Positions 4,490 to 51,582 of a DNA stretch of 64,000 nt are shown one piece after another. This stretch comes from Escherichia coli. Its GTDB lineage: Bacteria > Pseudomonadota > Gammaproteobacteria > Enterobacterales > Enterobacteriaceae. The notes under the pieces are model-generated. The model was not told the DNA's origin, did no database searches, and worked only from the letters and a program-made list of their open reading frames with translations. The position numbers and the translations under genes are program-made. Within the stretch, counting starts at the first letter, position 1, and each line of letters opens with the position of its first letter. Where the stretch lies: NCBI RefSeq assembly GCF_017348835.2, contig NZ_CP072315.1. The stretch is one strand, 5' to 3'.

Positions 4490-5565
4490 AGTACCTTCTT
4501 GATAATGGTTACAGCCCGATACTGGCCGAGGGTTCCCCCCATTTCTGTAACAACTATTCCCTTTTCACGAGCAAGCCCTACAAGCAAGGCAACGTCCGAG
4601 TCGTCAATAGAACGCACAAATACATGGTCCGGTACCCGACGTAATACAGCCCGGGTTGCTTCAGCAATACCGGGTTTTATACGATTGACGCTGTCCACTT
4701 TAAATTCATCGGCCAGGAACGCGATAACGTCGCGACTTGTCTGCCATAAGACCCGGGCTGACTCCGTATTCCAGCTCAGGGGAGCGAGGGATGACGGGGT
4801 TAACTTCTTACGGAAATGAGCGACGGTATCGACAAGCATCCGGCTGCATTCGAATTCACTGAGATGCTCGCAAACCATGCACCCGTGTAATCCTTCAGAG
4901 GACCACACTGACCGGGAGATCAGGCCTGACACCGGCGCACCCATGATGCCAAAAGGAATGAGCCAGTCATCATCACTGGCTGCAAGCCAGGAGCAGCCAC
5001 AGGGATCGGCCAGGACAACCAGTCGCGGCTGCTCAGGATAGCCCGGGCGATCTTTCAGTGCGCGTACAAGCTCTCCGGTAATTGCGCCTTTACCTGTCCA
5101 TCCGTCAACAAAGACAATACCGCTGGTACCATGCCGCTCTTCAATGACGTCGAGGGCTGCACCGTCAATTCCACGATCCCGGATAATGCTGATACCGTAA
5201 TGCCATGAGGTTTTCCCCATGTCACGCAGGGCCTGGTGCAGCATAACGCCGAGCGGCACGCCAGCCCTGACAAGACTGGCCAGTACAATGGGCTCATCAC
5301 CAAAGCGTTTGGCCAGAGCAATAGCGAGCTGTGTGACTTCTTTTGCAAGTCTCTCTGCGCCCCGATCCAGCGCCCGGTGAAACAAATCAAGATGCCATTG
5401 TGTTGGCGCTGGCTCCTGACTGAGCATGTCCGAATAATGTTTCTTCCCTGACTGAATCAGCTCTTCTTTTTGCTCAACCGGCGTCATCTCAATGACAACC
5501 GGCTTTAGCAGAAATTCCACGTCACCGGGCTGGTATGAGCCGGTAAATGTGTCATGTGGCTGCAT
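4486..5565 (-). CDS. Phosphoribosyltransferase-like protein (divergent)
   Basis: ATG at 5565 preceded by a GGAGAA ribosome-binding site and placed 1 nt after the HAD stop; degenerate PRTase-like motif IVFVDGWTGKGAITG. Confidence 0.55.
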   Translation of the reverse strand: MQPHDTFTGSYQPGDVEFLLKPVVIEMTPVEQKEELIQSGKKHYSDMLSQEPAPTQWHLDLFHRALDRGAERLAKEVTQLAIALAKRFGDEPIVLASLVRAGVPLGVMLHQALRDMGKTSWHYGISIIRDRGIDGAALDVIEERHGTSGIVFVDGWTGKGAITGELVRALKDRPGYPEQPRLVVLADPCGCSWLAASDDDWLIPFGIMGAPVSGLISRSVWSSEGLHGCMVCEHLSEFECSRMLVDTVAHFRKKLTPSSLAPLSWNTESARVLWQTSRDVIAFLADEFKVDSVNRIKPGIAEATRAVLRRVPDHVFVRSIDDSDVALLVGLAREKGIVVTEMGGTLGQYRAVTIIKKVL

Positions 5566-5566
5566 T

Positions 5567-6340
5567 TTAATTTTCTCCAAAAATTCGCTGTGAAATGGCA
5601 TCTGCAAACTGACTCTGACGCGGGATGCCAAACCAGCTGCACAGTTTCATAAAACGATGATCGCTCAGGCTGTCGCCCAGGCCAATTACGGGGAAGACTC
5701 CGCGTTCAGCCCGAAGTTTTTCAAGCAGCCATCTGACTGCCAGCCCTTTCTCAACCGGGGTGGGAAGCCAGGCCACGTTATTACTGTTGCGGTGGATGTA
5801 GAAGCCCTCGGTCGGAAACACCGTTTCTATCTCATCTGCAATGGCATTAAGCTCGTCAAGGCGGGTGCTGTCGCGGTGCTTCATCACCATATAAACCGCC
5901 GTTTCACCGTATTCGAAGTTCAGCCTTGCCCAGGCATTGATCCCTTTTGCGTCCATCATTTCAGTGATCAGACGCTGCATCGATGTCAGCTTTTCCTGGT
6001 AGGGAGCCAGCTGGCCAAGCATATGGGCCTTCCACTCCTCGTCGGGTTTGCCTTCAGGCGTGAGAATGACGGCCCCGTGCGTGGTGATTGCCCAGGAGTG
6101 GAAAGGGATCCGGACGCGGCTGATTTCTTCAGTTCCCCGGGCGGTAACAGGTATGAGTTCAGCCTGCTCCAGGAGCCAGTCCACCAACATGGACTGTTCT
6201 TCCGTCATAAAGCTTCGTGGATTCAGGGTGCGATCAACGGCACCGGTACGGAATGGCTCCAGGGCCAGCTCGTCCACCATTTTACGACGGGTCTGAAAGA
6301 GCGTGTCGTCAAGGTCGCTCAGAACAACGGGTTTATTCAT
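5567..6340 (-). CDS. HAD-superfamily hydrolase
   Basis: Starts MNKPVVLSDLDDTLF (HAD motif I DxDxT); ATG at 6340 overlaps the PRTase gene's stop by 8 nt; the longer track ORF 5567..6676 is an upstream extension. Confidence 0.7.
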   Translation of the reverse strand: MNKPVVLSDLDDTLFQTRRKMVDELALEPFRTGAVDRTLNPRSFMTEEQSMLVDWLLEQAELIPVTARGTEEISRVRIPFHSWAITTHGAVILTPEGKPDEEWKAHMLGQLAPYQEKLTSMQRLITEMMDAKGINAWARLNFEYGETAVYMVMKHRDSTRLDELNAIADEIETVFPTEGFYIHRNSNNVAWLPTPVEKGLAVRWLLEKLRAERGVFPVIGLGDSLSDHRFMKLCSWFGIPRQSQFADAISQRIFGEN

Positions 6341-36738: not shown

Positions 36739-37557
36739 GGCACTGTTGCAAATAGTCGGTGGTGATAAACTTATCATCCCCTTTTGCTGATGGAGCTGCA
36801 CATGAACCCATTCAAAGGCCGGCATTTTCAGCGTGACATCATTCTGTGGGCCGTACGCTGGTACTGCAAATACGGCATCAGTTACCGTGAGCTGCAGGAG
36901 ATGCTGGCTGAACGCGGAGTGAATGTCGATCACTCCACGATTTACCGCTGGGTTCAGCGTTATGCGCCTGAAATGGAAAAACGGCTGCGCTGGTACTGGC
37001 GTAACCCTTCCGATCTTTGCCCGTGGCACATGGATGAAACCTACGTGAAGGTCAATGGCCGCTGGGCGTATCTGTACCGGGCCGTCGACAGCCGGGGCCG
37101 CACTGTCGATTTTTATCTCTCCTCCCGTCGTAACAGCAAAGCTGCATACCGGTTTCTGGGTAAAATCCTCAACAACGTGAAGAAGTGGCAGATCCCACGA
37201 TCCTCAACACGGATAAAGCGCCCGCCTATGGTCGCGCGCTTGCTCTGCTCAAACGCGAAGGCCGGTGCCCGTCTGACGTTGAACACCGACAGATTAAGTA
37301 CCGGAACAACGTGATTGAATGCGATCATGGCAAACTGAAACGGATAATCAACGCCACGCTGGGATTTAAATCCATGAAGACGGCTTACGCCACCATCAAA
37401 GGTATTGAGGTGATGCGTGCACTACGCAAAGGCCAGGCCTCAGCATTTTATTATGGTGATCCCCTGGGCGAAATGCGCCTGGTAAGCAGAGTTTTTGAAA
37501 TGTAAGGCCTTTGAATAAGACAAAAGGCTGCCTCATCGCTAACTTTGCAACAGTGCC
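36739..37557 (+). mobile_element. IS26 copy 1 (819 bp, transposase frameshifted)
   Basis: 14-bp ends GGCACTGTTGCAAA / TTTGCAACAGTGCC; 1 bp shorter than the other copies from a change near 37198 (CCCACGATCCTCAACACGG versus CCCACGATTCATCAACACGG in other copies); no 8-bp target duplication. Confidence 0.9.
36802..37505 (+). pseudogene. tnp26: IS26 transposase gene, frameshifted
   Basis: Reading frame splits into track ORFs 36784..37314 and 37185..37505; protein diverges after KKWQIPR. Confidence 0.85.
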
Positions 37558-39079: not shown

Positions 39080-39899
39080 GGCACTGTTGCAAAGTTAGCG
39101 ATGAGGCAGCCTTTTGTCTTATTCAAAGGCCTTACATTTCAAAAACTCTGCTTACCAGGCGCATTTCGCCCAGGGGATCACCATAATAAAATGCTGAGGC
39201 CTGGCCTTTGCGTAGTGCACGCATCACCTCAATACCTTTGATGGTGGCGTAAGCCGTCTTCATGGATTTAAATCCCAGCGTGGCGTTGATTATCCGTTTC
39301 AGTTTGCCATGATCGCATTCAATCACGTTGTTCCGGTACTTAATCTGTCGGTGTTCAACGTCAGACGGGCACCGGCCTTCGCGTTTGAGCAGAGCAAGCG
39401 CGCGACCATAGGCGGGCGCTTTATCCGTGTTGATGAATCGTGGGATCTGCCACTTCTTCACGTTGTTGAGGATTTTACCCAGAAACCGGTATGCAGCTTT
39501 GCTGTTACGACGGGAGGAGAGATAAAAATCGACAGTGCGGCCCCGGCTGTCGACGGCCCGGTACAGATACGCCCAGCGGCCATTGACCTTCACGTAGGTT
39601 TCATCCATGTGCCACGGGCAAAGATCGGAAGGGTTACGCCAGTACCAGCGCAGCCGTTTTTCCATTTCAGGCGCATAACGCTGAACCCAGCGGTAAATCG
39701 TGGAGTGATCGACATTCACTCCGCGTTCAGCCAGCATCTCCTGCAGCTCACGGTAACTGATGCCGTATTTGCAGTACCAGCGTACGGCCCACAGAATGAT
39801 GTCACGCTGAAAATGCCGGCCTTTGAATGGGTTCATGTGCAGCTCCATCAGCAAAAGGGGATGATAAGTTTATCACCACCGACTATTTGCAACAGTGCC
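39080..39899 (-). mobile_element. IS26 copy 2 (820 bp)
   Basis: Both 14-bp ends present; abuts a 5'-truncated IS26 in the opposite orientation at 39900. Confidence 0.9.
39132..39836 (-). CDS. tnp26: IS26 transposase Tnp26 (Asn at position 184)
   Basis: 234 aa from [12 protein letters not shown]; contains KRIINATLG. Confidence 0.9.
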   Translation of the reverse strand: MNPFKGRHFQRDIILWAVRWYCKYGISYRELQEMLAERGVNVDHSTIYRWVQRYAPEMEKRLRWYWRNPSDLCPWHMDETYVKVNGRWAYLYRAVDSRGRTVDFYLSSRRNSKAAYRFLGKILNNVKKWQIPRFINTDKAPAYGRALALLKREGRCPSDVEHRQIKYRNNVIECDHGKLKRIINATLGFKSMKTAYATIKGIEVMRALRKGQASAFYYGDPLGEMRLVSRVFEM

Positions 39900-40207
39900 C
39901 AAACGCGAAGGCCGGTGCCCGTCTGACGTTGAACACCGACAGATTAAGTACCGGAACAACGTGATTGAATGCGATCATGGCAAACTGAAACGGATAATCG
40001 GCGCCACGCTGGGATTTAAATCCATGAAGACGGCTTACGCCACCATCAAAGGTATTGAGGTGATGCGTGCACTACGCAAAGGCCAGGCCTCAGCATTTTA
40101 TTATGGTGATCCCCTGGGCGAAATGCGCCTGGTAAGCAGAGTTTTTGAAATGTAAGGCCTTTGAATAAGACAAAAGGCTGCCTCATCGCTAACTTTGCAA
40201 CAGTGCC
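39900..40207 (+). mobile_element. Partial IS26 (3' terminal 308 bp)
   Basis: Encodes the C-terminal about 80 aa of Tnp26 with Gly at position 184 (KRIIGATLG); ends with TTTGCAACAGTGCC. Confidence 0.85.
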
Positions 40208-40416
40208 GGCTGAAGGCCGAGCAAGCCTGACAGGCCCGAAAAGCCCGGCACGGGCGTCGGCGGCGATGACGGCGGCGGCATTATCCAGGGTTGATGATGG
40301 AAGTGGAGGATATCGACAACCTCTCGCGCAACCAAGACATCGCGGTCGGACTGCAAGTGATCTTGAAGCCACGGGCCCGTCCCACCCCGACATGGACCTC
40401 GATGCCCGAACGGACG

Positions 40417-40917
40417 TTAGATTTCGAGTTCTAGGCGTTCTGCGATGAAGGTTGGATCCCAGCCGGGATTGAAAGTGTCGACGTGGGTGAATCCGAGCCG
40501 CTCGTATAGGCCACGCAGGTTCGGGTGGCAGTCGAGCCGCAGCTTGGCGCACCCCTGCGTTCGCGCGGCATGGCGGCAAGCCTCGATCAGCGCGGAGCTG
40601 ACACCCCGGCCCGCATGTGTCCGTCGCACCGCGAGCTTGTGCAGATATGCGGCCTCCCCCTTGAGGGCGTCGGGCCAGAACTCGGGATCCTCGGCCGACA
40701 AGGTGCAACAGCCGACGATGCCGTCGCTGCAACTCGCGACTAGGAGCTCGGATCTCAGGACGAAGGTCTCCGCGAATGTCCGGTCGATCCGCGCGACGTC
40801 CCAGGCGGGCGTTCCCTTGGCGGACATCCACGCCGCAGCGTCGTGCATCAGCCGCACAACCTCGTCGATATCACCCGAGCAGGCGACCCGAACGTTCGGA
40901 GGCTCCTCGCTGTCCAT
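40417..40917 (-). CDS. orf5: GNAT acetyltransferase (orf5 of the 3'-conserved segment)
   Basis: 166-aa ORF MDSEEPPNVRVACSGDIDEVVRLMHDAAAWM…. Confidence 0.85.
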   Translation of the reverse strand: MDSEEPPNVRVACSGDIDEVVRLMHDAAAWMSAKGTPAWDVARIDRTFAETFVLRSELLVASCSDGIVGCCTLSAEDPEFWPDALKGEAAYLHKLAVRRTHAGRGVSSALIEACRHAARTQGCAKLRLDCHPNLRGLYERLGFTHVDTFNPGWDPTFIAERLELEI

Positions 40918-41044
40918 TCGCTCCCCTGGCGCGGTATGAACCGCCGCCTCATAGTGCAGTTTGATCCTGACGAGCCCAGCATGTCTGCGCCCACCTTCGC
41001 GGAACCTGACCAGGGTCCGCTAGCGGGCGGCCGGAAGGTGAATG

Positions 41045-41884
41045 CTAGGCATGATCTAACCCTCGGTCTCTGGCGTCGCGACTGCGAAATTTCGCGAGGG
41101 TTTCCGAGAAGGTGATTGCGCTTCGCAGATCTCCAGGCGCGTGGGTGCGGACGTAGTCAGCGCCATTGCCGATCGCGTGAAGTTCCGCCGCAAGGCTCGC
41201 TGGACCCAGATCCTTTACAGGAAGGCCAACGGTGGCGCCCAAGAAGGATTTCCGCGACACCGAGACCAATAGCGGAAGCCCCAACGCCGACTTCAGCTTT
41301 TGAAGGTTCGACAGCACGTGCAGCGATGTTTCCGGTGCGGGGCTCAAGAAAAATCCCATCCCCGGATCGAGGATGAGCCGGTCGGCAGCGACCCCGCTCC
41401 GTCGCAAGGCGGAAACCCGCGCCTCGAAGAACCGCACAATCTCGTCGAGCGCGTCTTCGGGTCGAAGGTGACCGGTGCGGGTGGCGATGCCATCCCGCTG
41501 CGCTGAGTGCATAACCACCAGCCTGCAGTCCGCCTCAGCAATATCGGGATAGAGCGCAGGGTCAGGAAATCCTTGGATATCGTTCAGGTAGCCCACGCCG
41601 CGCTTGAGCGCATAGCGCTGGGTTTCCGGTTGGAAGCTGTCGATTGAAACACGGTGCATCTGATCGGACAGGGCGTCTAAGAGCGGCGCAATACGTCTGA
41701 TCTCATCGGCCGGCGATACAGGCCTCGCGTCCGGATGGCTGGCGGCCGGTCCGACATCCACGACGTCTGATCCGACTCGCAGCATTTCGATCGCCGCGGT
41801 GACAGCGCCGGCGGGGTCTAGCCGCCGGCTCTCATCGAAGAAGGAGTCCTCGGTGAGATTCAGAATGCCGAACACCGTCACCAT
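41045..41884 (-). CDS. sul1: Sulfonamide-resistant dihydropteroate synthase Sul1
   Basis: 279 aa from [23 protein letters not shown]. Confidence 0.95.
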
Positions 41885-42225
41885 GGCGTCGGCCTCCGCA
41901 GCGACTTCCACGATGGGGATCGGGCGAGCAAAAAGGCAGCAATTATGAGCCCCATACCTACAAAGCCCCACGCATCAAGCTTTTGCCCATGAAGCAACCA
42001 GGCAATGGCTGTAATTATGACGACGCCGAGTCCCGACCAGACTGCATAAGCAACACCGACAGGGATGGATTTCAGAACCAGAGAAAGAAAATAAAATGCG
42101 ATGCCATAACCGATTATGACAACGGCGGAAGGGGCAAGCTTAGTAAAGCCCTCGCTAGATTTTAATGCGGATGTTGCGATTACTTCGCCAACTATTGCGA
42201 TAACAAGAAAAAGCCAGCCTTTCAT
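41878..42225 (-). CDS. qacEdelta1: Truncated SMR efflux protein QacEdelta1
   Basis: 115 aa [27 protein letters not shown]…. Confidence 0.95.
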
Positions 42226-42335
42226 GATATATCTCCCAATTTGTGTAGGGCTTATTATGCACGCTTAAAAATAATAAAAGCAGACTTGACCTGATAGTTT
42301 GGCTGTGAGCAATTATGTGCTTAGTGCATCTAACG
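42223..42335 (-). repeat. About 110-bp direct repeat, copy A (start of 3'-conserved segment upstream of qacEdelta1)
   Basis: CCCAATTTGTGTAGGGCTTATTATGCACGCTTAAAAATAATAAAAGCAGACTTGACCTGATAGTTTGGCTGTGAGCAATTATGTGCTTAGTGCATCTAACG. Confidence 0.9.
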
Positions 42336-42341
42336 CCTGAA

Positions 42342-43187
42342 TTAAGCTGCGCCGCGAAGCGGCGTCGGCTTGAATGAACTGTTAGACATCATTGGCGTGG
42401 AGCCGAGCAGACTGGCGGCTTCGTGCTTCACAAAGTAAATGAACGCAGTCAACTGATCAGCGCGTGAGGCCAAGCAATCCATCCCTTGTCCAAGGTAAGC
42501 CTGCTGGGCTTCAAGCAGCACGGGCTGATGTTGGACGGGCAGGCGTTCCATTACCCAGTTGGCAGCTACATCCTTCGGCGCGATCTTGCCGGTTGCTGCG
42601 CTGTACCAAATGCGAGACAAAGTAAGCACTACATTCCGCTCGTCGCCTGCCCAATCCGGTTGTGAGTTCCATAGTTTCAAGGTGTCGGCCAGTGCTTTGA
42701 ATAGATCGCTTTCCGGGACTGAGTTGAAGAAATCTTCCGCGGCCGAACCTGCCAAGGCAAGGCTGTGTTGCCTTGCTTTAGTTAGCAGAATAGCCAGATC
42801 AACATCGGTTGTCGCGGGCTCGAAGATGCCCGCAAGAATGTCCTTGCGCTGCCACTCCCCGAATTGCAGTTCCCGTCTGGCTGGATAACGCCAAGGAACA
42901 ACATCGCCGTACACGACGATGGTAACTTCCAAGGCACGGAGAGCTTCACTTTGGCCGGGAGAAGCGGAAACTTCCAGGAAATCTACGAACAGAGCCTGCC
43001 GCACAGTCTCATCGAGCTGTGCAGTCACAGTAACCAGCAAATCAATATCACTGCATGGCTTCAGGCCACCGTCGAGTGCAGAGCCGTACAAATGCACGGC
43101 CAGCAACGTCGATCCCAGATGATGCTCGATGACGTTGAGTGCCTGTGATAGCTGTACCGAAATCTCGGCGGGCACTGCGTTGCTCAT
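42342..43187 (-). CDS. aadA16: Aminoglycoside (3'')(9) adenylyltransferase, aadA16-type
   Basis: 281 aa from MSNAVPAEISVQ; C-terminus …MSNSSFKPTPLRGAA reads into the attC region; allele assignment is from the array context and my recollection of the gene length. Confidence 0.8.
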   Translation of the reverse strand: MSNAVPAEISVQLSQALNVIEHHLGSTLLAVHLYGSALDGGLKPCSDIDLLVTVTAQLDETVRQALFVDFLEVSASPGQSEALRALEVTIVVYGDVVPWRYPARRELQFGEWQRKDILAGIFEPATTDVDLAILLTKARQHSLALAGSAAEDFFNSVPESDLFKALADTLKLWNSQPDWAGDERNVVLTLSRIWYSAATGKIAPKDVAANWVMERLPVQHQPVLLEAQQAYLGQGMDCLASRADQLTAFIYFVKHEAASLLGSTPMMSNSSFKPTPLRGAA

Positions 43188-43299
43188 GATGTCTAACTCC
43201 CAATTTGTGTAGGGCTTATTATGCACGCTTAAAAATAATAAAAGCAGACTTGACCTGATAGTTTGGCTGTGAGCAATTATGTGCTTAGTGCATCTAACG
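43186..43299 (-). repeat. About 110-bp direct repeat, copy B (5' region of the aadA16 cassette)
   Basis: Near-identical to copy A; supplies the MSNA start of aadA16. Confidence 0.9.
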
Positions 43300-43367
43300 C
43301 CGCTAAGCAGCGGCACATTTTGCGTTTTGAGCGCAGCGAAGCAAAATGTGTCCGATGGCTTGGATGG

Positions 43368-43841
43368 TTAACCCCTTTGCCAGATTTGATAGCGATAATT
43401 TATATTTGAATGAAATTCCTGCTCGAACACCACATTGAACTCTTTGGGGATTTCCGGAAAGAAAACATTGCCCTCTGGCTCGGAATCTATTGTCGAGATA
43501 TGTAGCGTGTCGGCATGGGCGATCAGACTCTTGTAGATCTCTCCACCACCAGAAACAACAACATGGTTCGTAAGAGTCTTTAGCTCCCTCATTGCTGCTT
43601 CTATAGATGGAAACACAACCACATCATCGTTAGTAGCTACCGATCCTGAGCGGCTGACAACTGCATACTTTCTATTTGGGAGAGCCCCCATTGCCTCAAA
43701 TGTTTTACGGCCGACTAAGAGCCATTGATTGTAAGTTATTGCTTTAAAAAGCAGCTGCTCACCTTTAGCGTTCCACGGGATATCCGAGCCGCAGCCAATA
43801 ACCCCATTTCTTGCTTTTGCAGCCATTAGTGATATTTTCAC
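43368..43841 (-). CDS. dfrA27: Trimethoprim-resistant dihydrofolate reductase, dfrA27-type
   Basis: 157 aa from a GTG start (V)[22 protein letters not shown]…; 474 bp. Confidence 0.8.
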
Positions 43842-43973
43842 GATACTCCTTTGGGTTAACGCCGCCATAAACGGCGACAGGGTGGCGCGCCTATTGCGCA
43901 TAAAATGGCGAAGCCATGCGCAACAGGCGCGGAATCTCTGGCGTCCGGTTTGATGGCTTTGTTATGCAAAGGA

Positions 43974-44426
43974 CTAGTCTTCAATGACGTGTAAACCACG
44001 GCGCTTTAAGTCCTCCAACGAATCCAACATTCCCCTTATTAATTCAACAGGATGCCCCTCCCAGTCTTCAACAACGCCAACAATTCTCAAGGGTTCGCAG
44101 GTTCTATAGGACTGTGTTGGATTACCGGGAAATCTTTTGTTCGTAAGATTCGGATCGTCTTCGAACGGTCCTGTTGGCTCAACTATGTATATGTAGCCGC
44201 GACCCTCGAGGCCAGACAGTGACATAGCAAGTTCAGCTCCCCAAACTGCTGGCTCCATCAAGGCTGAAAAGTAGATGTGCTTAAGAATACGACCGTCCTC
44301 GAAATGAGAGATGAACCCTGTGGTTAGCAAGTCACCAATCGCCAAATTGGCTTTGGTTCCATGATAGAACGGTCCTTGCACCTGCTTGTAATTATCATGA
44401 GAGATGGGAATCCAATCTTTTACCAT
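43974..44426 (-). CDS. arr-3: Rifampin ADP-ribosyltransferase Arr-3
   Basis: 150 aa MVKDWIPISHDNYKQVQGPFYHGTKANL…. Confidence 0.9.
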   Translation of the reverse strand: MVKDWIPISHDNYKQVQGPFYHGTKANLAIGDLLTTGFISHFEDGRILKHIYFSALMEPAVWGAELAMSLSGLEGRGYIYIVEPTGPFEDDPNLTNKRFPGNPTQSYRTCEPLRIVGVVEDWEGHPVELIRGMLDSLEDLKRRGLHVIED

Positions 44427-44522
44427 TTTAAGACCCTTAATTGTTGGGATTTGGCTGCATAACGTTTGACATGAGGGGCGGCCAAGGGCGCCAGCCCTTG
44501 GACGTCCCCCTCGATGGAAGGG

Positions 44523-45122
44523 TTAGGCATCACTGCGTGTTCGCTCGAATGCCTGGCGTGTTTGAACCATGTACACGGCTGGACCATATGGGGTGGTTAC
44601 GGTACCTTGCCTCTCAAACCCCGCTTTCTCGTAGCATCGGATCGCTCGCAAGTTGCTCGGCGACGGGTCCGTTTGGATCTTGGTGACCTCGGGATCATTG
44701 AACAGCAACTCAACCAGAGCTCGAACCAGCTTGGTTCCCAAGCCTTTGCCCAGTTGTGATGCATTCGCCAGTAACTGGTCTATTCCGCGTACTCCTGGAT
44801 CGGTTTCTTCTTCCCACCGTCCGTCCCCGCTTCCAAGAGCAACGTACGACTGGGCATACCCAATCGGCTCTCCATTCAGCATTGCAATGTATGGAGTGAC
44901 GGACTCTTGCGCTAAAACGCTTGGCAAGTACTGTTCCTGTACGTCAGCAAGTGTCGGGCGTGCTTCTTCTCCGCCCCACCACTCGACGATATGAGATCGA
45001 TTTAGCCACTCATAGAGCATCGCAAGGTCATGCTCAGTCATGAGGCGCAGTGTGACGGAATCGTTGCTGTTGGTCACGATGCTGTACTTTGTGATGCCTA
45101 ACTTTGTTTTTGCGTTGCTCAT
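44523..45122 (-). CDS. aac(6')-Ib-cr: Aminoglycoside/fluoroquinolone acetyltransferase AAC(6')-Ib-cr
   Basis: 199 aa from MSNAKTKLG; carries both -cr signature substitutions (Trp102Arg in GDGRWEEE and Asp179Tyr in TTPYGPAVY, numbering per the usual convention). Confidence 0.9.
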
Positions 45123-45233
45123 GATGTCTAACTCCCAATTTGTGTAGGGCTTATTATGCACGCTTAAAAATAATAAAAGCAGACTTGACCTGATAGTTTG
45201 GCTGTGAGCAATTATGTGCTTAGTGCATCTAAC
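45119..45233 (-). repeat. About 110-bp direct repeat, copy C (5' region of the aac(6')-Ib-cr cassette, next to attI1)
   Basis: Near-identical to copies A and B. Confidence 0.9.
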
Positions 45234-45295
45234 TTTGTTTTAGGGCGACTGCCCTGCTGCGTAACATCGTTGCTGCTCCATAACATCAAACATCG
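45230..45295 (-). other. attI1 recombination site
   Basis: 5'-conserved-segment end sequence …GATGTTATGGAGCAGCAACGATGTTACGCAGCAGGGCAGTCGCCCTAAAACAAAGTT read on the minus strand. Confidence 0.8.
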
Positions 45296-45368
45296 ACCCA
45301 CGGCGTAACGCGCTTGCTGCTTGGATGCCCGAGGCATAGACTGTACAAAAAAACAGTCATAACAAGCC

Positions 45369-46382
45369 ATGAAAACCGCCACTGCGCCGTTACCACCGCT
45401 GCGTTCGGTCAAGGTTCTGGACCAGTTGCGTGAGCGCATACGCTACTTGCATTACAGCTTACGAACCGAACAGGCTTATGTCCACTGGGTTCGTGCCTTC
45501 ATCCGTTTCCACGGTGTGCGTCACCCGGCAACCTTGGGCAGCAGCGAAGTCGAGGCATTTCTGTCCTGGCTGGCGAACGAGCGCAAGGTTTCGGTCTCCA
45601 CGCATCGTCAGGCATTGGCGGCCTTGCTGTTCTTCTACGGCAAGGTGCTGTGCACGGATCTGCCCTGGCTTCAGGAGATCGGAAGACCTCGGCCGTCGCG
45701 GCGCTTGCCGGTGGTGCTGACCCCGGATGAAGTGGTTCGCATCCTCGGTTTTCTGGAAGGCGAGCATCGTTTGTTCGCCCAGCTTCTGTATGGAACGGGC
45801 ATGCGGATCAGTGAGGGTTTGCAACTGCGGGTCAAGGATCTGGATTTCGATCACGGCACGATCATCGTGCGGGAGGGCAAGGGCTCCAAGGATCGGGCCT
45901 TGATGTTACCCGAGAGCTTGGCACCCAGCCTGCGCGAGCAGCTGTCGCGTGCACGGGCATGGTGGCTGAAGGACCAGGCCGAGGGCCGCAGCGGCGTTGC
46001 GCTTCCCGACGCCCTTGAGCGGAAGTATCCGCGCGCCGGGCATTCCTGGCCGTGGTTCTGGGTTTTTGCGCAGCACACGCATTCGACCGATCCACGGAGC
46101 GGTGTCGTGCGTCGCCATCACATGTATGACCAGACCTTTCAGCGCGCCTTCAAACGTGCCGTAGAACAAGCAGGCATCACGAAGCCCGCCACACCGCACA
46201 CCCTCCGCCACTCGTTTGCGACGGCCTTGCTCCGCAGCGGTTACGACATTCGAACCGTGCAGGATCTGCTCGGCCATTCCGACGTCTCTACGACGATGAT
46301 TTACACGCATGTGCTGAAAGTTGGCGGTGCCGGAGTGCGCTCACCGCTTGATGCGCTGCCGCCCCTCACTAGTGAGAGGTAG
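45369..46382 (+). CDS. intI1: Class 1 integron integrase IntI1
   Basis: 337 aa [40 protein letters not shown]…. Confidence 0.95.
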
Positions 46383-46559
46383 GGCAGCGCAAGTCAATCC
46401 TGGCGGATTCACTACCCCTGCGCGAAGGCCATCGGTGCCGCATCGAACGGCCGGTTGCGGAAAGTCCTCCCTGCGTCCGCTGATGGCCGGCAGCAGCCCG
46501 TCGTTGCCTGATGGATCCAACCCCTCCGCTGCTATAGTGCAGTCGGCTTCTGACGTTCA

Positions 46560-46584
46560 GTGCAGCCGTCTTCTGAAAACGACA
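46560..46584 (+). repeat. Class 1 integron 25-bp inverted repeat IRi
   Basis: GTGCAGCCGTCTTCTGAAAACGACA (reverse complement of TGTCGTTTTCAGAAGACGGCTGCAC). Confidence 0.9.
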
Positions 46585-46800
46585 AACAGCCAGAAAGGCT
46601 GTTACAGGCGATTTGATCTGCAACCTATTGGTTAAATTAATGTATCAAAAACGATGGTTTTTGTGACAGTCTTGAAAAGTCCTGACTTCTCCCGAAAAAT
46701 GACTCCCCTCATGTAACAAAACTCGTTACTGTATCAACATAACAATAACCCCATAACTAATTAGCGAGAAAAGAATGAAAATCGGCTATGCACGTAAATC

Positions 46801-47620
46801 GGCACTGTTGCAAATAGTCGGTGGTGATAAACTTATCATCCCCTTTTGCTGATGGAGCTGCACATGAACCCATTCAAAGGCCGGCATTTTCAGCGTGACA
46901 TCATTCTGTGGGCCGTACGCTGGTACTGCAAATACGGCATCAGTTACCGTGAGCTGCAGGAGATGCTGGCTGAACGCGGAGTGAATGTCGATCACTCCAC
47001 GATTTACCGCTGGGTTCAGCGTTATGCGCCTGAAATGGAAAAACGGCTGCGCTGGTACTGGCGTAACCCTTCCGATCTTTGCCCGTGGCACATGGATGAA
47101 ACCTACGTGAAGGTCAATGGCCGCTGGGCGTATCTGTACCGGGCCGTCGACAGCCGGGGCCGCACTGTCGATTTTTATCTCTCCTCCCGTCGTAACAGCA
47201 AAGCTGCATACCGGTTTCTGGGTAAAATCCTCAACAACGTGAAGAAGTGGCAGATCCCACGATTCATCAACACGGATAAAGCGCCCGCCTATGGTCGCGC
47301 GCTTGCTCTGCTCAAACGCGAAGGCCGGTGCCCGTCTGACGTTGAACACCGACAGATTAAGTACCGGAACAACGTGATTGAATGCGATCATGGCAAACTG
47401 AAACGGATAATCAACGCCACGCTGGGATTTAAATCCATGAAGACGGCTTACGCCACCATCAAAGGTATTGAGGTGATGCGTGCACTACGCAAAGGCCAGG
47501 CCTCAGCATTTTATTATGGTGATCCCCTGGGCGAAATGCGCCTGGTAAGCAGAGTTTTTGAAATGTAAGGCCTTTGAATAAGACAAAAGGCTGCCTCATC
47601 GCTAACTTTGCAACAGTGCC
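46801..47620 (+). mobile_element. IS26 copy 3 (820 bp)
   Basis: Both 14-bp ends; no target duplication. Confidence 0.95.
46864..47568 (+). CDS. tnp26: IS26 transposase Tnp26 (Asn at position 184)
   Basis: 234 aa; KRIINATLG. Confidence 0.9.
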   Translation: MNPFKGRHFQRDIILWAVRWYCKYGISYRELQEMLAERGVNVDHSTIYRWVQRYAPEMEKRLRWYWRNPSDLCPWHMDETYVKVNGRWAYLYRAVDSRGRTVDFYLSSRRNSKAAYRFLGKILNNVKKWQIPRFINTDKAPAYGRALALLKREGRCPSDVEHRQIKYRNNVIECDHGKLKRIINATLGFKSMKTAYATIKGIEVMRALRKGQASAFYYGDPLGEMRLVSRVFEM

Positions 47621-48213
47621 TTTGCACACATATGGAATCTGTAAATCATTTTGGACAAACCCGAAAAGAAATCCGTGAGTATGTAGATCTTAATAAGATT
47701 ACTGACCAGGTTAGTATCCCTGAAGATGGTGAAGTCGTTAATCTTTAATTATACATCCCCACAACTTTAATCAGGCAGTTACTCATTATGGTTTTACTGG
47801 TGACTGCCGGCCCTCTTAGCATTCGAAATTTTTTATGTCACCCGATTTAGTTCCGCGCACTTTTTGAGATTTCCGGGGTTTCAGCCATCAGCCGGAAATT
47901 ACAGAGGGCAATGGCTGAAGAAGGTTTTTCCCCGCGATAGCGCAAGTTTCCACAAAAGGGCATCGAATTTTTTGAATGCCCTTTTCTTACCCCATCCCCT
48001 CATAACTTTATGTTTTTATTAACTTCGCGTTTTCGACGCCAGCGTTGGCCAGCTGCTGCCGGCGACGTGGCCACACAACCGATTATTCAAGTTCGCTGAA
48101 TGAGTTTTTACGGGCTGTATGCAACACAAATGCTACGATAATGCCCCCGGACAATACCGGCTCCCAATAATCCGGGGTGGGTTTGTTCTGCCGGTTTAGT
48201 CCGGGGAGCAAGG

Positions 48214-48501
48214 TCACTTTGAGGGGAGATCTTCAGCAAGTAATTTTCCATGCGCGATAAGCCACCTGCGGCGTTTTGCCATCCACTGCTGAAATTCAGA
48301 GGTGCTCTCAACCTTCAGCACATCCTTCCGCTTCCAGGCCATTATGGGGCCAGCTTTTTGTGGTTGGTCGAGAAAGTCAGATATGGCTTTATCAGTCCAG
48401 TACCGCGCTTTCAATCCACTTTTACTTATCCAGTTATCGTGCCATTCAGCGCTTGCTTTAGCGCGTGAATCGGCGGCGTTGTAATAAAGCCTTACCGTCA
48501 T
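48214..48501 (-). CDS. Hypothetical protein
   Basis: 95-aa ORF downstream of the helicase fragment. Confidence 0.35.
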   Translation of the reverse strand: MTVRLYYNAADSRAKASAEWHDNWISKSGLKARYWTDKAISDFLDQPQKAGPIMAWKRKDVLKVESTSEFQQWMAKRRRWLIAHGKLLAEDLPSK

Positions 48502-48510
48502 TACTCGCTC

Positions 48511-48965
48511 CTATAATCTCAAGGCTCTGTCATCGTTATTTTTTTCATGGCCTTTATCTTTAGGCCGGGCATTACCTTTATCCTGCGTCGGCTCGGCTTT
48601 GTCTCGGCCTTTTTCGCGGGTATCATGCTGCTGCTCTTTGGCATAGCGTTTGAGTTGTTCCAGCTCAAGCGCGGCGGTTTTGAACCCTTCCCGGCTGGCC
48701 GCTTTATCCAGCTTCTTCTCATCGTCGGTGTAAATGACGGCTTCGTGTTTAGCGCGGGTGACAGCCACGTAATAAACATCTTTGGCCGTTGTGAGTGATC
48801 GGGTATCCATATTGATAAAAACCTTGTCGCAGGTCAGCCCCTGAGCACTATGAACGGTCGAAGCGTAAGCCAGCCCTAAGTACATAGGTTTGTTGGCATC
48901 AATTTTTACCAGCCGCCCTTTCTCGTTCTCCAGCAGTACCTCACCACTCTGGACGCTTTTTACCT
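48511..48965 (-). pseudogene. 3' fragment of a RecD/TraI-type helicase (relaxase-like) gene, interrupted by Tn1721
   Basis: C-terminal helicase motifs (YASTVHSAQGLTCDKVFI, YVAVTRAKHEAVIYTDD); the reading frame continues up to the inverted repeat at 48972 with no start. Confidence 0.6.
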
Positions 48966-48971
48966 TAAAAC

Positions 48972-49009
48972 GGGGGAACCGCAGAATTCGGAAAAAATCG
49001 TACGCTAAG
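48972..49009 (+). repeat. Tn1721-type 38-bp terminal inverted repeat (IRL-like)
   Basis: GGGGGAACCGCAGAATTCGGAAAAAATCGTACGCTAAG. Confidence 0.85.
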
Positions 49010-49160
49010 CTAACGGTGTTCTCGTGACAGCTCTTTGACTAGGCTTTCTAAGGCCATTCTGATAGCCCTGACTTCCTGAAAAGCCATGGCTAAAATTTGT
49101 GCGGCTAAAAGGGATAACCGATGGTAAAGTAAGTTATCCCTGTCGAGATACTGAAAAGCG

Positions 49161-50738
49161 TTATCCTCGTTTTTCCCAAAACTGTTTTGCCAGTTCGCTC
49201 AGAGCGCTAGTTAACTGAGCGACAGATTTCGCACTTTGCAAATTATTCTGCCCGGTCTGTACATTGGTATCAGCAGCATCGCGTATATTGATAATACTGC
49301 GGTTTATGTCTTCACTTACTGCTCCCTGCTGCTCGACCGCAGTCGCTATTTGCGCGTTCATGTCGGTAATTTCGTTAACGCGTTGGCCAATTCCATCAAG
49401 AGCTGTAGCTGCTTCCTCTGCGTGAGCTACACTCGTGTGCGCTTGCCGACTACTTTGCTCCATGACTGTAACAGCGGATTGCGCTCGCTCTTGTAGAGCG
49501 CTGATCATGCTTTGAATATCCGTTGTCGATTGCTGTGTGCGAGCAGCAAGACTGCGAACCTCATCGGCGACAACAGCAAAACCACGCCCCTGCTCACCAG
49601 CACGCGCGGCCTCAATTGCTGCGTTGAGTGCCAACAAATTCGTTTGCTCGGCGATCCCTCGTATAACGTCAAGAACTTTTGATATCTCGTTACTTTGACC
49701 TTCAAGCTCATGAATAACCTGAGTGGCTTGCCTAATTTCACCTTCAAGGGCAGTGATTGACTGGCTTGTGTGGGCTACCAGACGCTGGCCAGATGCCGTC
49801 TCAGTGTCTGCTCTTCCGGCCGCATCTGCAGCATGCTGTGCATTGCTCGCAACCTCTTGAATGCTTGCCACCATTTGGTTTACTGCCGTTGCTATTTGAT
49901 CTGTCTCTGCCTGCTGCTCAACTGTAAGTACATTGCTTGACTCAATATCCTTTAGTAGGCCTCGGGTGTGTTCGCTAAGCCGATTTGATGCATCACCTAT
50001 GCGACCTACTATGGCGCCTGTTTCAGCTTGCATCATTCGTAAAGCAAACTCTATTTGGCCAAACTCATCGGTGCGCCCAGTGTAGAGGGATTGACTTAAT
50101 GGGTTATTGGAAATATTCCTGGCTCTTTCAACCAGTCTTCCAAGAGGAGAGAGAATAGCCAAAACACTAACAGAGCTTAAGCTTCCTGACATTAAAGTGG
50201 CTAACAATAAGCTGCTTATTGATGTATCAGTAAGCATGCCGGCAGCCATTGCGCTTGATATAATACTACCCCATATGAGCAAGAGTATTTTCACGGAAAA
50301 GCTAGCAGCCAATTTCGGCCTCGCGGCCTTCCCGCTTCTCAATTGAGCATATAATTTTTCCGCAGCCAAAACCTGCTCAGGTTCAGGCTTGGTCCTTACA
50401 GACTGGTATTCAACAATCGAACCATTCTTAGCTATTGGCGTTACATAAGCACTTACCCAATAGTGGTCGCCATTTTTACAGCGATTTTTTACTAGCCCCA
50501 TCCATGAGCGGCCAGATTTTAATGTACTCCACATATGCTCAAATGCAGCAGGCGGCATATCTGGGTGTCTTACGATGTTGTGAGGCTGGCCTAATAGTTC
50601 TTCCTCAGTGAAACCACTGATTTTAATGAAGTCAGGATTAACGTACGTGATATGGCTTTGAGGGGAGGTAGTCGAAAGAATATTGGCATCTTTTGGGAGT
50701 TCTAAGTTTCGACCCGTCACTGGTAAATTCTGGCGCAT
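49161..50738 (-). CDS. Methyl-accepting chemotaxis-like protein (Tn1721 orfI-type) with N-terminal PAS-like region
   Basis: 525 aa from [20 protein letters not shown] signalling-domain character; the 730-aa track ORF is a fusion with antisense IS26 sequence. Confidence 0.8.
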
Positions 50739-50762
50739 AAGAACCTCAAGGGTTGGCTGTTT

Positions 50763-51582
50763 GGCACTGTTGCAAATAGTCGGTGGTGATAAACTTATCA
50801 TCCCCTTTTGCTGATGGAGCTGCACATGAACCCATTCAAAGGCCGGCATTTTCAGCGTGACATCATTCTGTGGGCCGTACGCTGGTACTGCAAATACGGC
50901 ATCAGTTACCGTGAGCTGCAGGAGATGCTGGCTGAACGCGGAGTGAATGTCGATCACTCCACGATTTACCGCTGGGTTCAGCGTTATGCGCCTGAAATGG
51001 AAAAACGGCTGCGCTGGTACTGGCGTAACCCTTCCGATCTTTGCCCGTGGCACATGGATGAAACCTACGTGAAGGTCAATGGCCGCTGGGCGTATCTGTA
51101 CCGGGCCGTCGACAGCCGGGGCCGCACTGTCGATTTTTATCTCTCCTCCCGTCGTAACAGCAAAGCTGCATACCGGTTTCTGGGTAAAATCCTCAACAAC
51201 GTGAAGAAGTGGCAGATCCCGCGATTCATCAACACGGATAAAGCGCCCGCCTATGGTCGCGCGCTTGCTCTGCTCAAACGCGAAGGCCGGTGCCCGTCTG
51301 ACGTTGAACACCGACAGATTAAGTACCGGAACAACGTGATTGAATGCGATCATGGCAAACTGAAACGGATAATCGGCGCCACGCTGGGATTTAAATCCAT
51401 GAAGACGGCTTACGCCACCATCAAAGGTATTGAGGTGATGCGTGCACTACGCAAAGGCCAGGCCTCAGCATTTTATTATGGTGATCCCCTGGGCGAAATG
51501 CGCCTGGTAAGCAGAGTTTTTGAAATGTAAGGCCTTTGAATAAGACAAAAGGCTGCCTCATCGCTAACTTTGCAACAGTGCC
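50763..51582 (+). mobile_element. IS26 copy 4 (820 bp)
   Basis: Both 14-bp ends; lies 24 bp upstream of the mcp start codon. Confidence 0.95.
50826..51530 (+). CDS. tnp26: IS26 transposase Tnp26 (Gly at position 184)
   Basis: 234 aa; KRIIGATLG. Confidence 0.9.

What the first reader, a model, noticed from the sequence alone, without database searches (positions are those of the whole stretch)
46585..46800. Remnant beyond IRi includes the first nine codons of a possible serine recombinase gene cut by IS26
Immediately outside the integron IRi there are 216 bp of AT-rich sequence ending in ATGAAAATCGGCTATGCACGTAAATCG (MKIGYARKS…), which runs straight into the IS26 end. This looks like the start of a resolvase-type gene and would fit an integron that originally targeted a res region.
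Basis: inference. Interest (0 to 1): 0.25.

Follow-up and report, generated by a model that had tools for sequence, protein, structure and literature searches.

The report
IncN plasmid resolvase-gene stub beside integron
The 216 bases are a well-known leftover of an IncN plasmid (its resolution-site region plus the first 26 bases of the resolvase gene resP). It stayed attached to a class 1 integron when IS26 cut the gene, and it is an ordinary scar seen in thousands of resistance plasmids.

Summary
Window 46585-46800 lies between the integron end IRi (46560-46584) and the left end of IS26 (46801). It is 100% identical to the backbone of IncN plasmids, covering the ecoRII-resP intergenic region and the first 26 nt of resP. 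resP encodes a 189-aa small serine recombinase with Resolvase and HTH_7 domains, and its closest solved relative is the Gin invertase.

The integron entered IncN by Tn402-type transposition. AACAG is duplicated at both integron ends in IncN references, IRi faces resP, and the reconstructed empty site is intact in about 420 plasmids.

IS26 later hit resP at nt 19-26. The other half, IS26-CGTAAATC-rest of resP, exists in IncN plasmids, and one plasmid carries both halves. The cut falls inside codon 9, the catalytic serine, so the stub is dead. It forms only a 25-codon hybrid ORF that runs into IS26.

The stub still carries a probable ResP crossover site, a 28-bp palindrome at 46641-46668. This exact junction is in 33 PLSDB plasmids, and sister junctions at nt 26 (inverted IS26), nt 30 and nt 90 are in hundreds more. 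The feature is already known and of low interest. It is useful mainly as a lineage marker showing that the integron module came from an IncN plasmid.

The parts
45369..46382 (+). intI1, the class 1 integron integrase (337 aa), part of the 5'-conserved segment to which the remnant is attached
   Evidence: ORF list; annotated as IntI1 WP_000845048.1 in the identical stretch of p2016062-242
46560..46584 (-). IRi, the 25-bp terminal inverted repeat of the Tn402-type class 1 integron and its outer boundary
   Evidence: Exact match to TGTCGTTTTCAGAAGACGGCTGCAC on the minus strand. No IRt was found in the window at up to 4 mismatches
46585..46589 (.). AACAG, one copy of the 5-bp target-site duplication made when the integron transposed into the IncN backbone
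   Evidence: In IncN pKPC-629 the IRt flank ends in AACAG and the IRi flank starts with AACAG. The reconstructed single-copy site is contiguous at 100% identity in pNL194 and many others
46585..46774 (+). IncN backbone: the resP-proximal 190 bp of the 239-bp ecoRII-resP intergenic region, i.e. the presumed res and resP promoter region
   Evidence: 100% identity to IncN plasmids. In pNL194 this region lies between the type II endonuclease gene and resP
46641..46668 (.). Putative ResP crossover site (res site I): TGTATCAAAAAC-GATG-GTTTTTGTGACA, two 12-bp inverted half-sites (10/12 symmetrical) around a central AT
   Evidence: Inverted repeat I2. Conserved with one substitution in an 84%-identical IncN variant whose adjacent spacer has diverged. 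Aligns in register with both Mu gix sites. Function is inferred, not shown
46712..46745 (.). Further half-site-like repeats (TGTAACAAAAC, GTTACTG, TGTATCAACA), candidate accessory ResP binding sites
   Evidence: Repeats D1 and I3. This block is conserved in the divergent IncN variant, where it forms the perfect palindrome CTGTAAC-N7-GTTACAG. Inferred
46672..46700 (+). Sigma-70-like promoter match TTGAAA-17-AAAAAT upstream of resP
   Evidence: One site was found against 0.7 expected by chance, so this is weak evidence only
46775..46800 (+). Truncated resP: nt 1-26 of the 570-nt IncN resolvase gene (M K I G Y A R K + TC of Ser9)
   Evidence: Identical to the start of the WP_001749988.1 genes. 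Ser9 aligns with Ser9 of Gin
46793..46800 (.). CGTAAATC, the 8-bp IS26 target sequence (resP nt 19-26). The second copy of the duplication is not in the window
   Evidence: IS26-CGTAAATC-resP(27...) junctions occur in 7 IncN-type plasmids. pL2395_NDM holds both halves. The window's own IS26 flanks are CGTAAATC / TTTGCACA, so there is no local TSD
46801..47620 (+). IS26, a complete 820-bp copy with tnp26 on the + strand, which truncates resP
   Evidence: Terminal repeats; identical to the copy at 39080-39899; 240-aa transposase ORF
46775..46852 (+). Hybrid 25-codon ORF ([25 protein letters not shown]) created by the fusion. It ends 11 nt before the tnp26 ATG (46864, inside the listed ORF 46846-47568, read)
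   Evidence: Translation. No domain can be encoded; presumed meaningless
39900..40207 (+). Truncated IS26 (3' ~308 nt) forming the other boundary of the integron module. Together with IS26 at 46801 it brackets 40208-46800 with directly oriented IS26 sequence
   Evidence: blastn of IS26 against the window; IR positions

Best explanation
Window 46585-46800 is a passenger fragment of an IncN plasmid backbone.

Step 1 (shown by comparison): a Tn402-type class 1 integron transposed into the ecoRII-resP intergenic region of an IncN plasmid, 190 bp upstream of the resolvase gene resP. It duplicated AACAG, and IRi faced resP. This is the pattern expected for a 'res site hunter' guided by a resolvase bound at its res site.

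Step 2 (shown by comparison): IS26 transposed into resP at nt 19-26 (target CGTAAATC), inside the codon for the catalytic Ser9. This split the IncN plasmid's resolvase gene into two halves.

Step 3 (inferred): the integron, with 216 bp of IncN DNA still attached, is now bracketed by directly oriented IS26 sequence (39900-40207 and 46801-47620). It was moved by IS26-mediated cointegration, translocatable-unit or recombination events out of IncN into other replicons. Here that is a context best matched by an IncHI2A Salmonella plasmid.

The stub encodes no recombinase. It is a molecular fossil and lineage marker. It still contains the probable ResP crossover site and the resP promoter region, now without their gene.
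For: - **Identity to IncN:** 516 bp (46285-46800) are 100% identical to IncN pKPC-629 up to the IS26 end, and nothing else of resP or repA is in the window. In IncN plasmids the same sequence is followed by the full resP and then the IncN repA.
- **Protein family:** ResP has Resolvase and HTH_7 domains, and its Ser9 aligns with Gin Ser9.
- **Integron insertion:** AACAG flanks both IRt and IRi in pKPC-629. The empty site is 213/213 identical in pNL194 and others, with 420 records covering >=80% of it. The IRi-towards-resolvase orientation and 5-bp repeats are the described res-hunter hallmarks (PMC7765201).
- **IS26 insertion:** the reciprocal junction IS26-CGTAAATC-resP(27...) is found in 7 IncN-type plasmids. 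pL2395_NDM contains both halves, each next to an IS26.
- **Spread of the junction:** the exact junction is in 33 plasmid records of several replicon types and with different cassette arrays.
- **Host context:** the best whole-context match is IncHI2A p2016062-242.
- **Literature:** resP is described as the IncN1 resolvase gene, the region next to it as an accessory-module hotspot, and IS26 as truncating it (PMC5027574; PMC7843705; PMC9769515).
Against: - The window has no 8-bp duplication around its IS26 (CGTAAATC vs TTTGCACA) and no IRt. Both transposition events are therefore reconstructed from other plasmids, not from the window.
- The same nt-26 breakpoint abuts IS26 in both orientations in different plasmids. 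One simple insertion does not explain this.
- The nt-26 and nt-90 junctions both end in AAATC, so a secondary 64-bp deletion cannot be strictly excluded.
- The res site itself has not been mapped here. Site I is an inference from symmetry, conservation and resemblance to gix.
Confidence: 0.93

Rival explanations
1. The nt-26 junction did not arise by IS26 inserting at that spot. It derives from the much commoner nt-90 junction (as in pKDO1) by loss of 64 bp, through either IS26-mediated adjacent deletion or slippage between the two AAATC pentamers at resP nt 22-26 and 86-90.
For: pKDO1-type plasmids carry IRi-res-resP(1-90)-IS26 in the same IS26 orientation, and this class is far more frequent. 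Both junctions read AAATC|GGCACTG. Nested end-points at nt 26, 30 and 90 exist.
Against: The reciprocal product IS26(IRR)-CGTAAATC-resP(27...) exists with the exact 8-bp overlap expected of a direct IS26 hit at nt 19-26. It co-occurs with the nt-26 junction in one IncN plasmid. A deletion derivative would not generate a matching reciprocal half.
Confidence: 0.06
2. The stretch is a remnant of a transposon res-tnpR module (Tn21/Tn3 family) or of a plasmid par/mrs region, rather than IncN backbone.
For: Class 1 integrons are classically found in res regions of Tn21-family transposons and in the IncP par region (PMC7765201). The N-terminal motif MKIGYARxS is generic to serine recombinases.
Against: The records inspected where the sequence continues intact are IncN backbones, with ecoRII/dcm on one side and resP, iterons and IncN repA on the other. 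Identity is 100% over 516 bp. No Tn3-family inverted repeat or tnpA adjoins it.
Confidence: 0.01
3. The remnant is retained because it still does something. Either the orphan res acts as a cis site for ResP supplied by a co-resident IncN plasmid, or as bait for Tn402-type elements. Or the resP promoter, freed from ResP autorepression, reads through the 25-codon hybrid ORF into tnp26 and raises IS26 transposase expression.
For: The whole 190-bp upstream region is intact, including the palindromic putative crossover site and a promoter-like match. The hybrid ORF and tnp26 are co-oriented, and the ORF stops 11 nt before the tnp26 ATG.
Against: Sister junctions have IS26 in the opposite orientation, so co-orientation is not conserved. 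The promoter match is no better than chance. Linkage to a strongly selected integron explains persistence without any function. No expression or recombination data exist.
Confidence: 0.1

Closest known systems
resP (resolvase) and its upstream region in the IncN1 plasmid backbone (R46, pKP96, pNL194, pKPC-629 type); protein WP_001749988.1
   Same: 100% nucleotide identity over the whole remnant and on into the integron (516 bp). Same ATG, same upstream region, and same integron insertion point with AACAG.
   Different: Only nt 1-26 of 570 remain. The rest of resP, the iterons and repA are absent from the window, and the host context resembles an IncHI2A plasmid.
Delta-resP/IS26 junctions of other multiresistance plasmids: pKDO1-type dfrA14 module (cut at nt 90), p18-29tetA (nt 30, IS26 inverted), pEC25-1 (nt 26, IS26 inverted)
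   Same: Same IRi-AACAG-res-resP start followed by IS26. pEC25-1 also carries the same cassette array, aac(6')-Ib-cr/arr-3/dfrA27/aadA16.
   Different: Different breakpoint and/or IS26 orientation. The window's exact junction (nt 26, IS26 direct) is the rarer class, found in 33 PLSDB records.
Tn402/Tn5053-family 'res site hunter' insertions (e.g. class 1 integrons in res of Tn21-family transposons, and Tn402-like elements in the IncP parA-res region)
   Same: 25-bp IRi, a 5-bp direct repeat, insertion just upstream of a serine resolvase gene, and the initial (IRi/IRo) end nearest that gene (PMC7765201).
   Different: The target is the IncN resP region. The insertion lies about 52 bp outside the putative site I rather than demonstrably within res. 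Only the IRi-side half of the event is present in the window.
Gin/Hin DNA invertases and their gix/hix crossover sites
   Same: ResP is the closest sequence relative of Gin among solved structures (E 3.5e-38, aligned from residue 1, Ser9 to Ser9). The 46641-46668 palindrome has 12-bp half-sites resembling gix half-sites (GTATCAAAAACG / GTCACAAAAACC versus TTATCCAAAACC / TTCCTGTAAACC), and it aligns in register with both Mu gix sites.
   Different: ResP is named a plasmid resolvase in the IncN literature read here. The match to gix is 16/26, a level that shuffled 26-mers reach about as often. No enhancer or Fis system is implied.

Membership tests
Small serine recombinase (resolvase/invertase family, Pfam PF00239 + PF02796) | N-terminal catalytic domain of about 140 aa with a serine nucleophile near residue 9-10, plus a C-terminal HTH | tested here: not met
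   The full-length IncN ResP meets this (Resolvase 1.1e-34, HTH_7 6.8e-16; Ser9 aligned to Gin Ser9). The window keeps only 26 nt, and the ORF ends after 25 codons inside IS26. It is a gene fragment, not a member protein.
Small serine recombinase (resolvase/invertase family, Pfam PF00239 + PF02796) | The start of the gene (ATG and N-terminal motif hGYxRxS) is homologous to a real family member and not a chance ATG | tested here: met
   The 26 nt and the 490 nt upstream are identical to plasmids in which the ORF continues to 189 aa.
IncN plasmid backbone (ecoRII-resP-repA region) | Near-identity and collinearity with reference IncN plasmids | tested here: met
   100% identity over 46585-46800. 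1,871 plasmid records match at >=99%. Context in IncN-typed plasmids is dcm-ecoRII | site | resP | repA.
Tn402/Tn5053-type (res site hunter) transposition footprint | 25-bp terminal inverted repeats IRi and IRt | tested here: inconclusive
   IRi is present at 46560-46584. IRt is absent from the window because the 3'-CS is cut by IS26 sequence at 40207. Both repeats are present in IncN references.
Tn402/Tn5053-type (res site hunter) transposition footprint | 5-bp direct repeat of the target, and an uninterrupted target elsewhere | tested here: met
   AACAG is at both ends in pKPC-629 and at 46585-46589 in the window. The empty site is found intact in pNL194 and about 420 records.
Tn402/Tn5053-type (res site hunter) transposition footprint | Insertion at or near a res site, with the initial end towards the resolvase gene | tested here: met
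   IRi is 190 bp upstream of resP and faces it. This orientation rule is stated in PMC7765201. The exact extent of the IncN res was not determined.
IS26 transposition junction | 14-bp terminal inverted repeat of IS26 abutting the interrupted sequence | tested here: met
   GGCACTGTTGCAAA at 46801, in a full 820-bp IS26.
IS26 transposition junction | 8-bp target-site duplication | tested here: met
   It is not present around the window's own IS26 (CGTAAATC / TTTGCACA). The second copy is found attached to the other resP half in IncN plasmids, and both halves occur in pL2395_NDM.
Resolvase res site (crossover site plus accessory sites) | Dimer-binding sites made of inverted 12-bp half-sites upstream of the resolvase gene, with a central crossover dinucleotide | tested here: inconclusive
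   There is a 28-bp palindrome with a central AT at 46641-46668 and extra half-site-like repeats at 46712-46745. These are conserved in a divergent IncN variant. No binding or recombination data exist, and the subsite count is not established.

The most novel reading that the evidence does not exclude
The orphan IncN res/promoter stub may not be inert. ResP supplied in trans by a co-resident IncN plasmid could bind it. That would make this IncHI2-type plasmid a preferred landing pad for further Tn402-type elements, or a partner for ResP-mediated fusion with IncN plasmids. Alternatively, the unrepressed resP promoter could read into tnp26 and make this particular IS26 copy hyperactive.
Probability: 0.08. 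Interest if true: 0.4.

Novelty: already known. Interest (0 to 1): 0.1.

Why it matters
The stub matters mainly as a provenance marker. It shows that the aac(6')-Ib-cr/arr-3/dfrA27/aadA16 integron module in this window was once on an IncN plasmid and left it through IS26 activity. Breakpoint classes in resP (nt 26, 30, 90, and IS26 orientation) can be used to trace lineages of resistance modules across replicons. It adds nothing new mechanistically. Res-hunting by Tn402-type integrons, IS26 truncation of neighbouring genes and IS26-driven shuffling are all established.

Tried and rejected
- **Rest of resP in the window:** I looked for the rest of resP or IncN repA next to another IS26, which would indicate a local inversion. 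There is none; only 46285-46800 matches.
- **Local duplication:** I compared the 8-bp flanks of all four complete IS26 copies. No copy has matching flanks, and none shares CGTAAATC.
- **hix/hixC sequences:** I tried to document these from the paper library to support the crossover-site resemblance. Both sequence searches were useless, so I used the real Mu gix sites instead. The 16/26 match is in register with both sites but is not above the shuffle background, so I keep it as a lead only.
- **Promoter/terminator scan:** this gave one promoter-like and one terminator-like hit, neither above expectation.
- **Tn21-family or par origin:** rejected, because the records inspected with the intact sequence are IncN backbones.
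- **Fortuitous ATG:** rejected.
- **Interconversion of IS26 orientations:** I asked whether the two IS26 orientations at nt 26 could interconvert by homologous recombination between IS26 copies. By reasoning they cannot, because each flank stays joined to the same IS end. This remains unexplained.

Full report
**What is in the sequence.**
- intI1 occupies 45369-46382.
- The 25-bp integron end IRi is at 46560-46584.
- A complete 820-bp IS26 begins with GGCACTGTTGCAAA at 46801 and ends at 47620.
- The 216 bp between IRi and IS26 (46585-46800) are 37.5% G+C, against 61% for the integron side.
- The stretch ends with ATGAAAATCGGCTATGCACGTAAATC, with the ATG at 46775.

Twenty-six nucleotides of the ORF survive, which is 8 codons plus 2 nt. 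The first G of IS26 restores codon 9 as Ser, and the frame then runs 16 more codons into IS26 before a stop ([25 protein letters not shown]).

**Identity.** The 216 bp match at >=99% identity in 1,871 plasmid records. Any match is found in 2,286 plasmid records and in 437 of 5,426 complete E. coli genomes. In small conjugative plasmids typed IncN, the same sequence continues into an annotated 570-nt 'recombinase family protein' gene (WP_001749988.1), followed by the IncN replication gene. Window 46285-46800 is 100% identical over 516 bp to IncN pKPC-629, right up to the IS26 end. No other part of that IncN region is present in the window.

The full-length protein has Pfam Resolvase (1.1e-34) and HTH_7 (6.8e-16) domains. 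Among solved structures it is closest to the Gin DNA invertase (E 3.5e-38), ahead of gamma-delta and Tn3 resolvases. Its Ser9 aligns to Gin Ser9, which from established knowledge is the catalytic nucleophile, and one matching Gin chain has Ala at that position in the alignment. The literature calls this gene resP, the resolvase of the IncN1 backbone. It describes the adjacent region as a hotspot for accessory modules and reports IS26-bounded insertions and truncations in it (PMC5027574; PMC7843705; PMC9769515).

**How the integron came to sit there.** In IncN pKPC-629 the integron's IRt flank ends in AACAG and its IRi flank begins with AACAG. I removed the integron and one AACAG in silico, and the resulting sequence is found uninterrupted. 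It is 213/213 identical in pNL194 and others, and 420 records cover at least 80% of it. In pNL194 this site is the 239-bp spacer between the divergently transcribed ecoRII endonuclease gene and resP.

A 5-bp duplication, 25-bp ends and the initial end pointing towards the target's resolvase gene are the published hallmarks of Tn5053/Tn402 'res site hunters' (PMC7765201). The window retains the IRi-side half of this event, including AACAG at 46585-46589.

**The res region itself (inferred).** The remnant contains a 28-bp near-palindrome at 46641-46668, TGTATCAAAAAC-GATG-GTTTTTGTGACA, with 10 of 12 symmetrical positions and a central AT. More half-site-like repeats lie at 46712-46745. In an IncN variant only 84% identical, these two blocks are conserved while the spacer between them has diverged. 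There the second block forms the perfect palindrome CTGTAAC-N7-GTTACAG.

The inner 26 bp of the palindrome align in register with both gix sites of phage Mu, as the second and third best of about 12,000 positions. The 16/26 score alone is not above a shuffle background. I read 46641-46668 as the probable ResP crossover site and 46712-46745 as accessory sites. This has not been tested. The integron insertion point would then lie about 52 bp outside site I.

**How resP was cut.** The window's IS26 has different 8-bp flanks (CGTAAATC and TTTGCACA), so the event is not a simple local insertion. The reciprocal half does exist elsewhere. Seven IncN-type plasmids carry IS26 directly followed by CGTAAATC and the rest of resP, then the IncN repA. 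That is the 8-bp overlap (resP nt 19-26) expected from an IS26 target duplication. One plasmid, pL2395_NDM (IncN with an IncFII segment), holds both halves, each beside an IS26. IS26 therefore transposed into resP in an IncN plasmid, and the two halves were later separated.

In the window the integron plus stub (40208-46800) is bracketed by a truncated IS26 (39900-40207) and the complete IS26, in the same orientation. This is the arrangement IS26 uses to move adjacent DNA. The best overall match to the surrounding 14 kb is an IncHI2A Salmonella plasmid.

**How common it is.** The exact junction (nt 26, IS26 direct) occurs in 33 PLSDB records, in Escherichia, Salmonella, Klebsiella and others. 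It occurs with at least three cassette arrays. Sister junctions exist:
- nt 26 with IS26 inverted, roughly one hundred records by sampling. One example, pEC25-1, carries the same aac(6')-Ib-cr/arr-3/dfrA27/aadA16 array.
- nt 30 with IS26 inverted.
- nt 90 with IS26 direct, the commonest class, as in pKDO1.

**Rivals.**
- A deletion origin from the nt-90 junction is suggested by the shared AAATC at both junctions. The reciprocal half with the exact 8-bp overlap argues against it.
- A Tn21-family or par origin is excluded by the uniformly IncN context of the intact copies inspected.
- A residual function (orphan res, or resP promoter reading into tnp26) cannot be excluded but has no support. The promoter match is at chance level, and IS26 orientation is not conserved among sister junctions.

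**Verdict.** This is an ordinary, already described kind of scar: a delta-resP/res remnant of IncN next to a class 1 integron, cut by IS26. It is useful as a lineage marker and is not novel.

Noticed in passing
window 46793-46814; L006 (pEC25-1) 6001-6039; L008 and L009 5001-5050: The same resP breakpoint (after nt 26, target CGTAAATC) abuts IS26 in both orientations, and both reciprocal halves (IRR-CGTAAATC-resP and IRL-CGTAAATC-resP) exist in different plasmids. Homologous recombination between IS26 copies cannot swap which IS end touches a flank. This implies either two independent hits on the same 8 bp or an in-place flip of IS26.
   Followed up: partly
window 46796-46800 versus L004 (pKDO1) around 2714: The nt-26 and the much commoner nt-90 resP/IS26 junctions are both preceded by AAATC (GTAAATC|GGCACTG and GCAAATC|GGCACTG). 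This could be coincidence, a weak IS26 target preference, or a 64-bp deletion between the pentamers.
   Followed up: partly
L009 (pESBL_DR09b, IncN/IncR) 4987-5577: In the reciprocal half, the outward-reading end of IS26 supplies an ATG and 13 codons fused in frame to ResP from Arg7 ([21 protein letters not shown]...). Arg7, Lys8 and Ser9 are kept, and it is annotated as a 196-aa recombinase. A possibly still active ResP with a new N-terminus and an IS26-derived start.
   Followed up: partly
window 50763 onward; L009 1-4962: The module to the right of the IS26 at 50763-51582 (small hypothetical gene, recombinase, ISVsa3, DUF3363, floR, as annotated in the matching plasmid) is the same module that abuts the other half of resP via IS26 in pESBL_DR09b. 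This hints that the integron stub and the floR module were once neighbours at resP in a common IncN ancestor.
   Followed up: partly
window 39080-40207: A complete IS26 (39080-39899, minus orientation, identical to the 46801 copy) is inserted into or abuts another IS26, of which only the last ~308 nt remain (39900-40207, 2-3 mismatches). This truncated copy forms the left boundary of the integron module next to the truncated orf5/3'-CS.
   Followed up: partly
window 36739-37557 and 50763-51582: The IS26 copy at 36739-37557 is 819 bp (one mismatch and a 1-bp gap relative to the others), which may frameshift tnp26. The copy at 50763-51582 differs by 3 substitutions. None of the four complete IS26 copies has matching 8-bp flanks.
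   Followed up: no
window 47621-50762: The segment between two directly oriented IS26 copies carries a 124-aa ORF resembling the C-terminal end of a relaxase/helicase (48511-48885, minus strand). It also holds a 95-aa hypothetical ORF and, in the matching plasmid's annotation, a PAS-domain methyl-accepting chemotaxis protein gene. It is an odd passenger set for a resistance region, yet it is conserved in many Klebsiella plasmids.
   Followed up: no
window 46585-46603: The Tn402 target AACAG is part of a perfect 7-bp hairpin, AACAGCC-AGAAA-GGCTGTT, scored as terminator-like on the minus strand. The integron inserted exactly at the foot of this hairpin, which might be relevant to target choice.
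   Followed up: no
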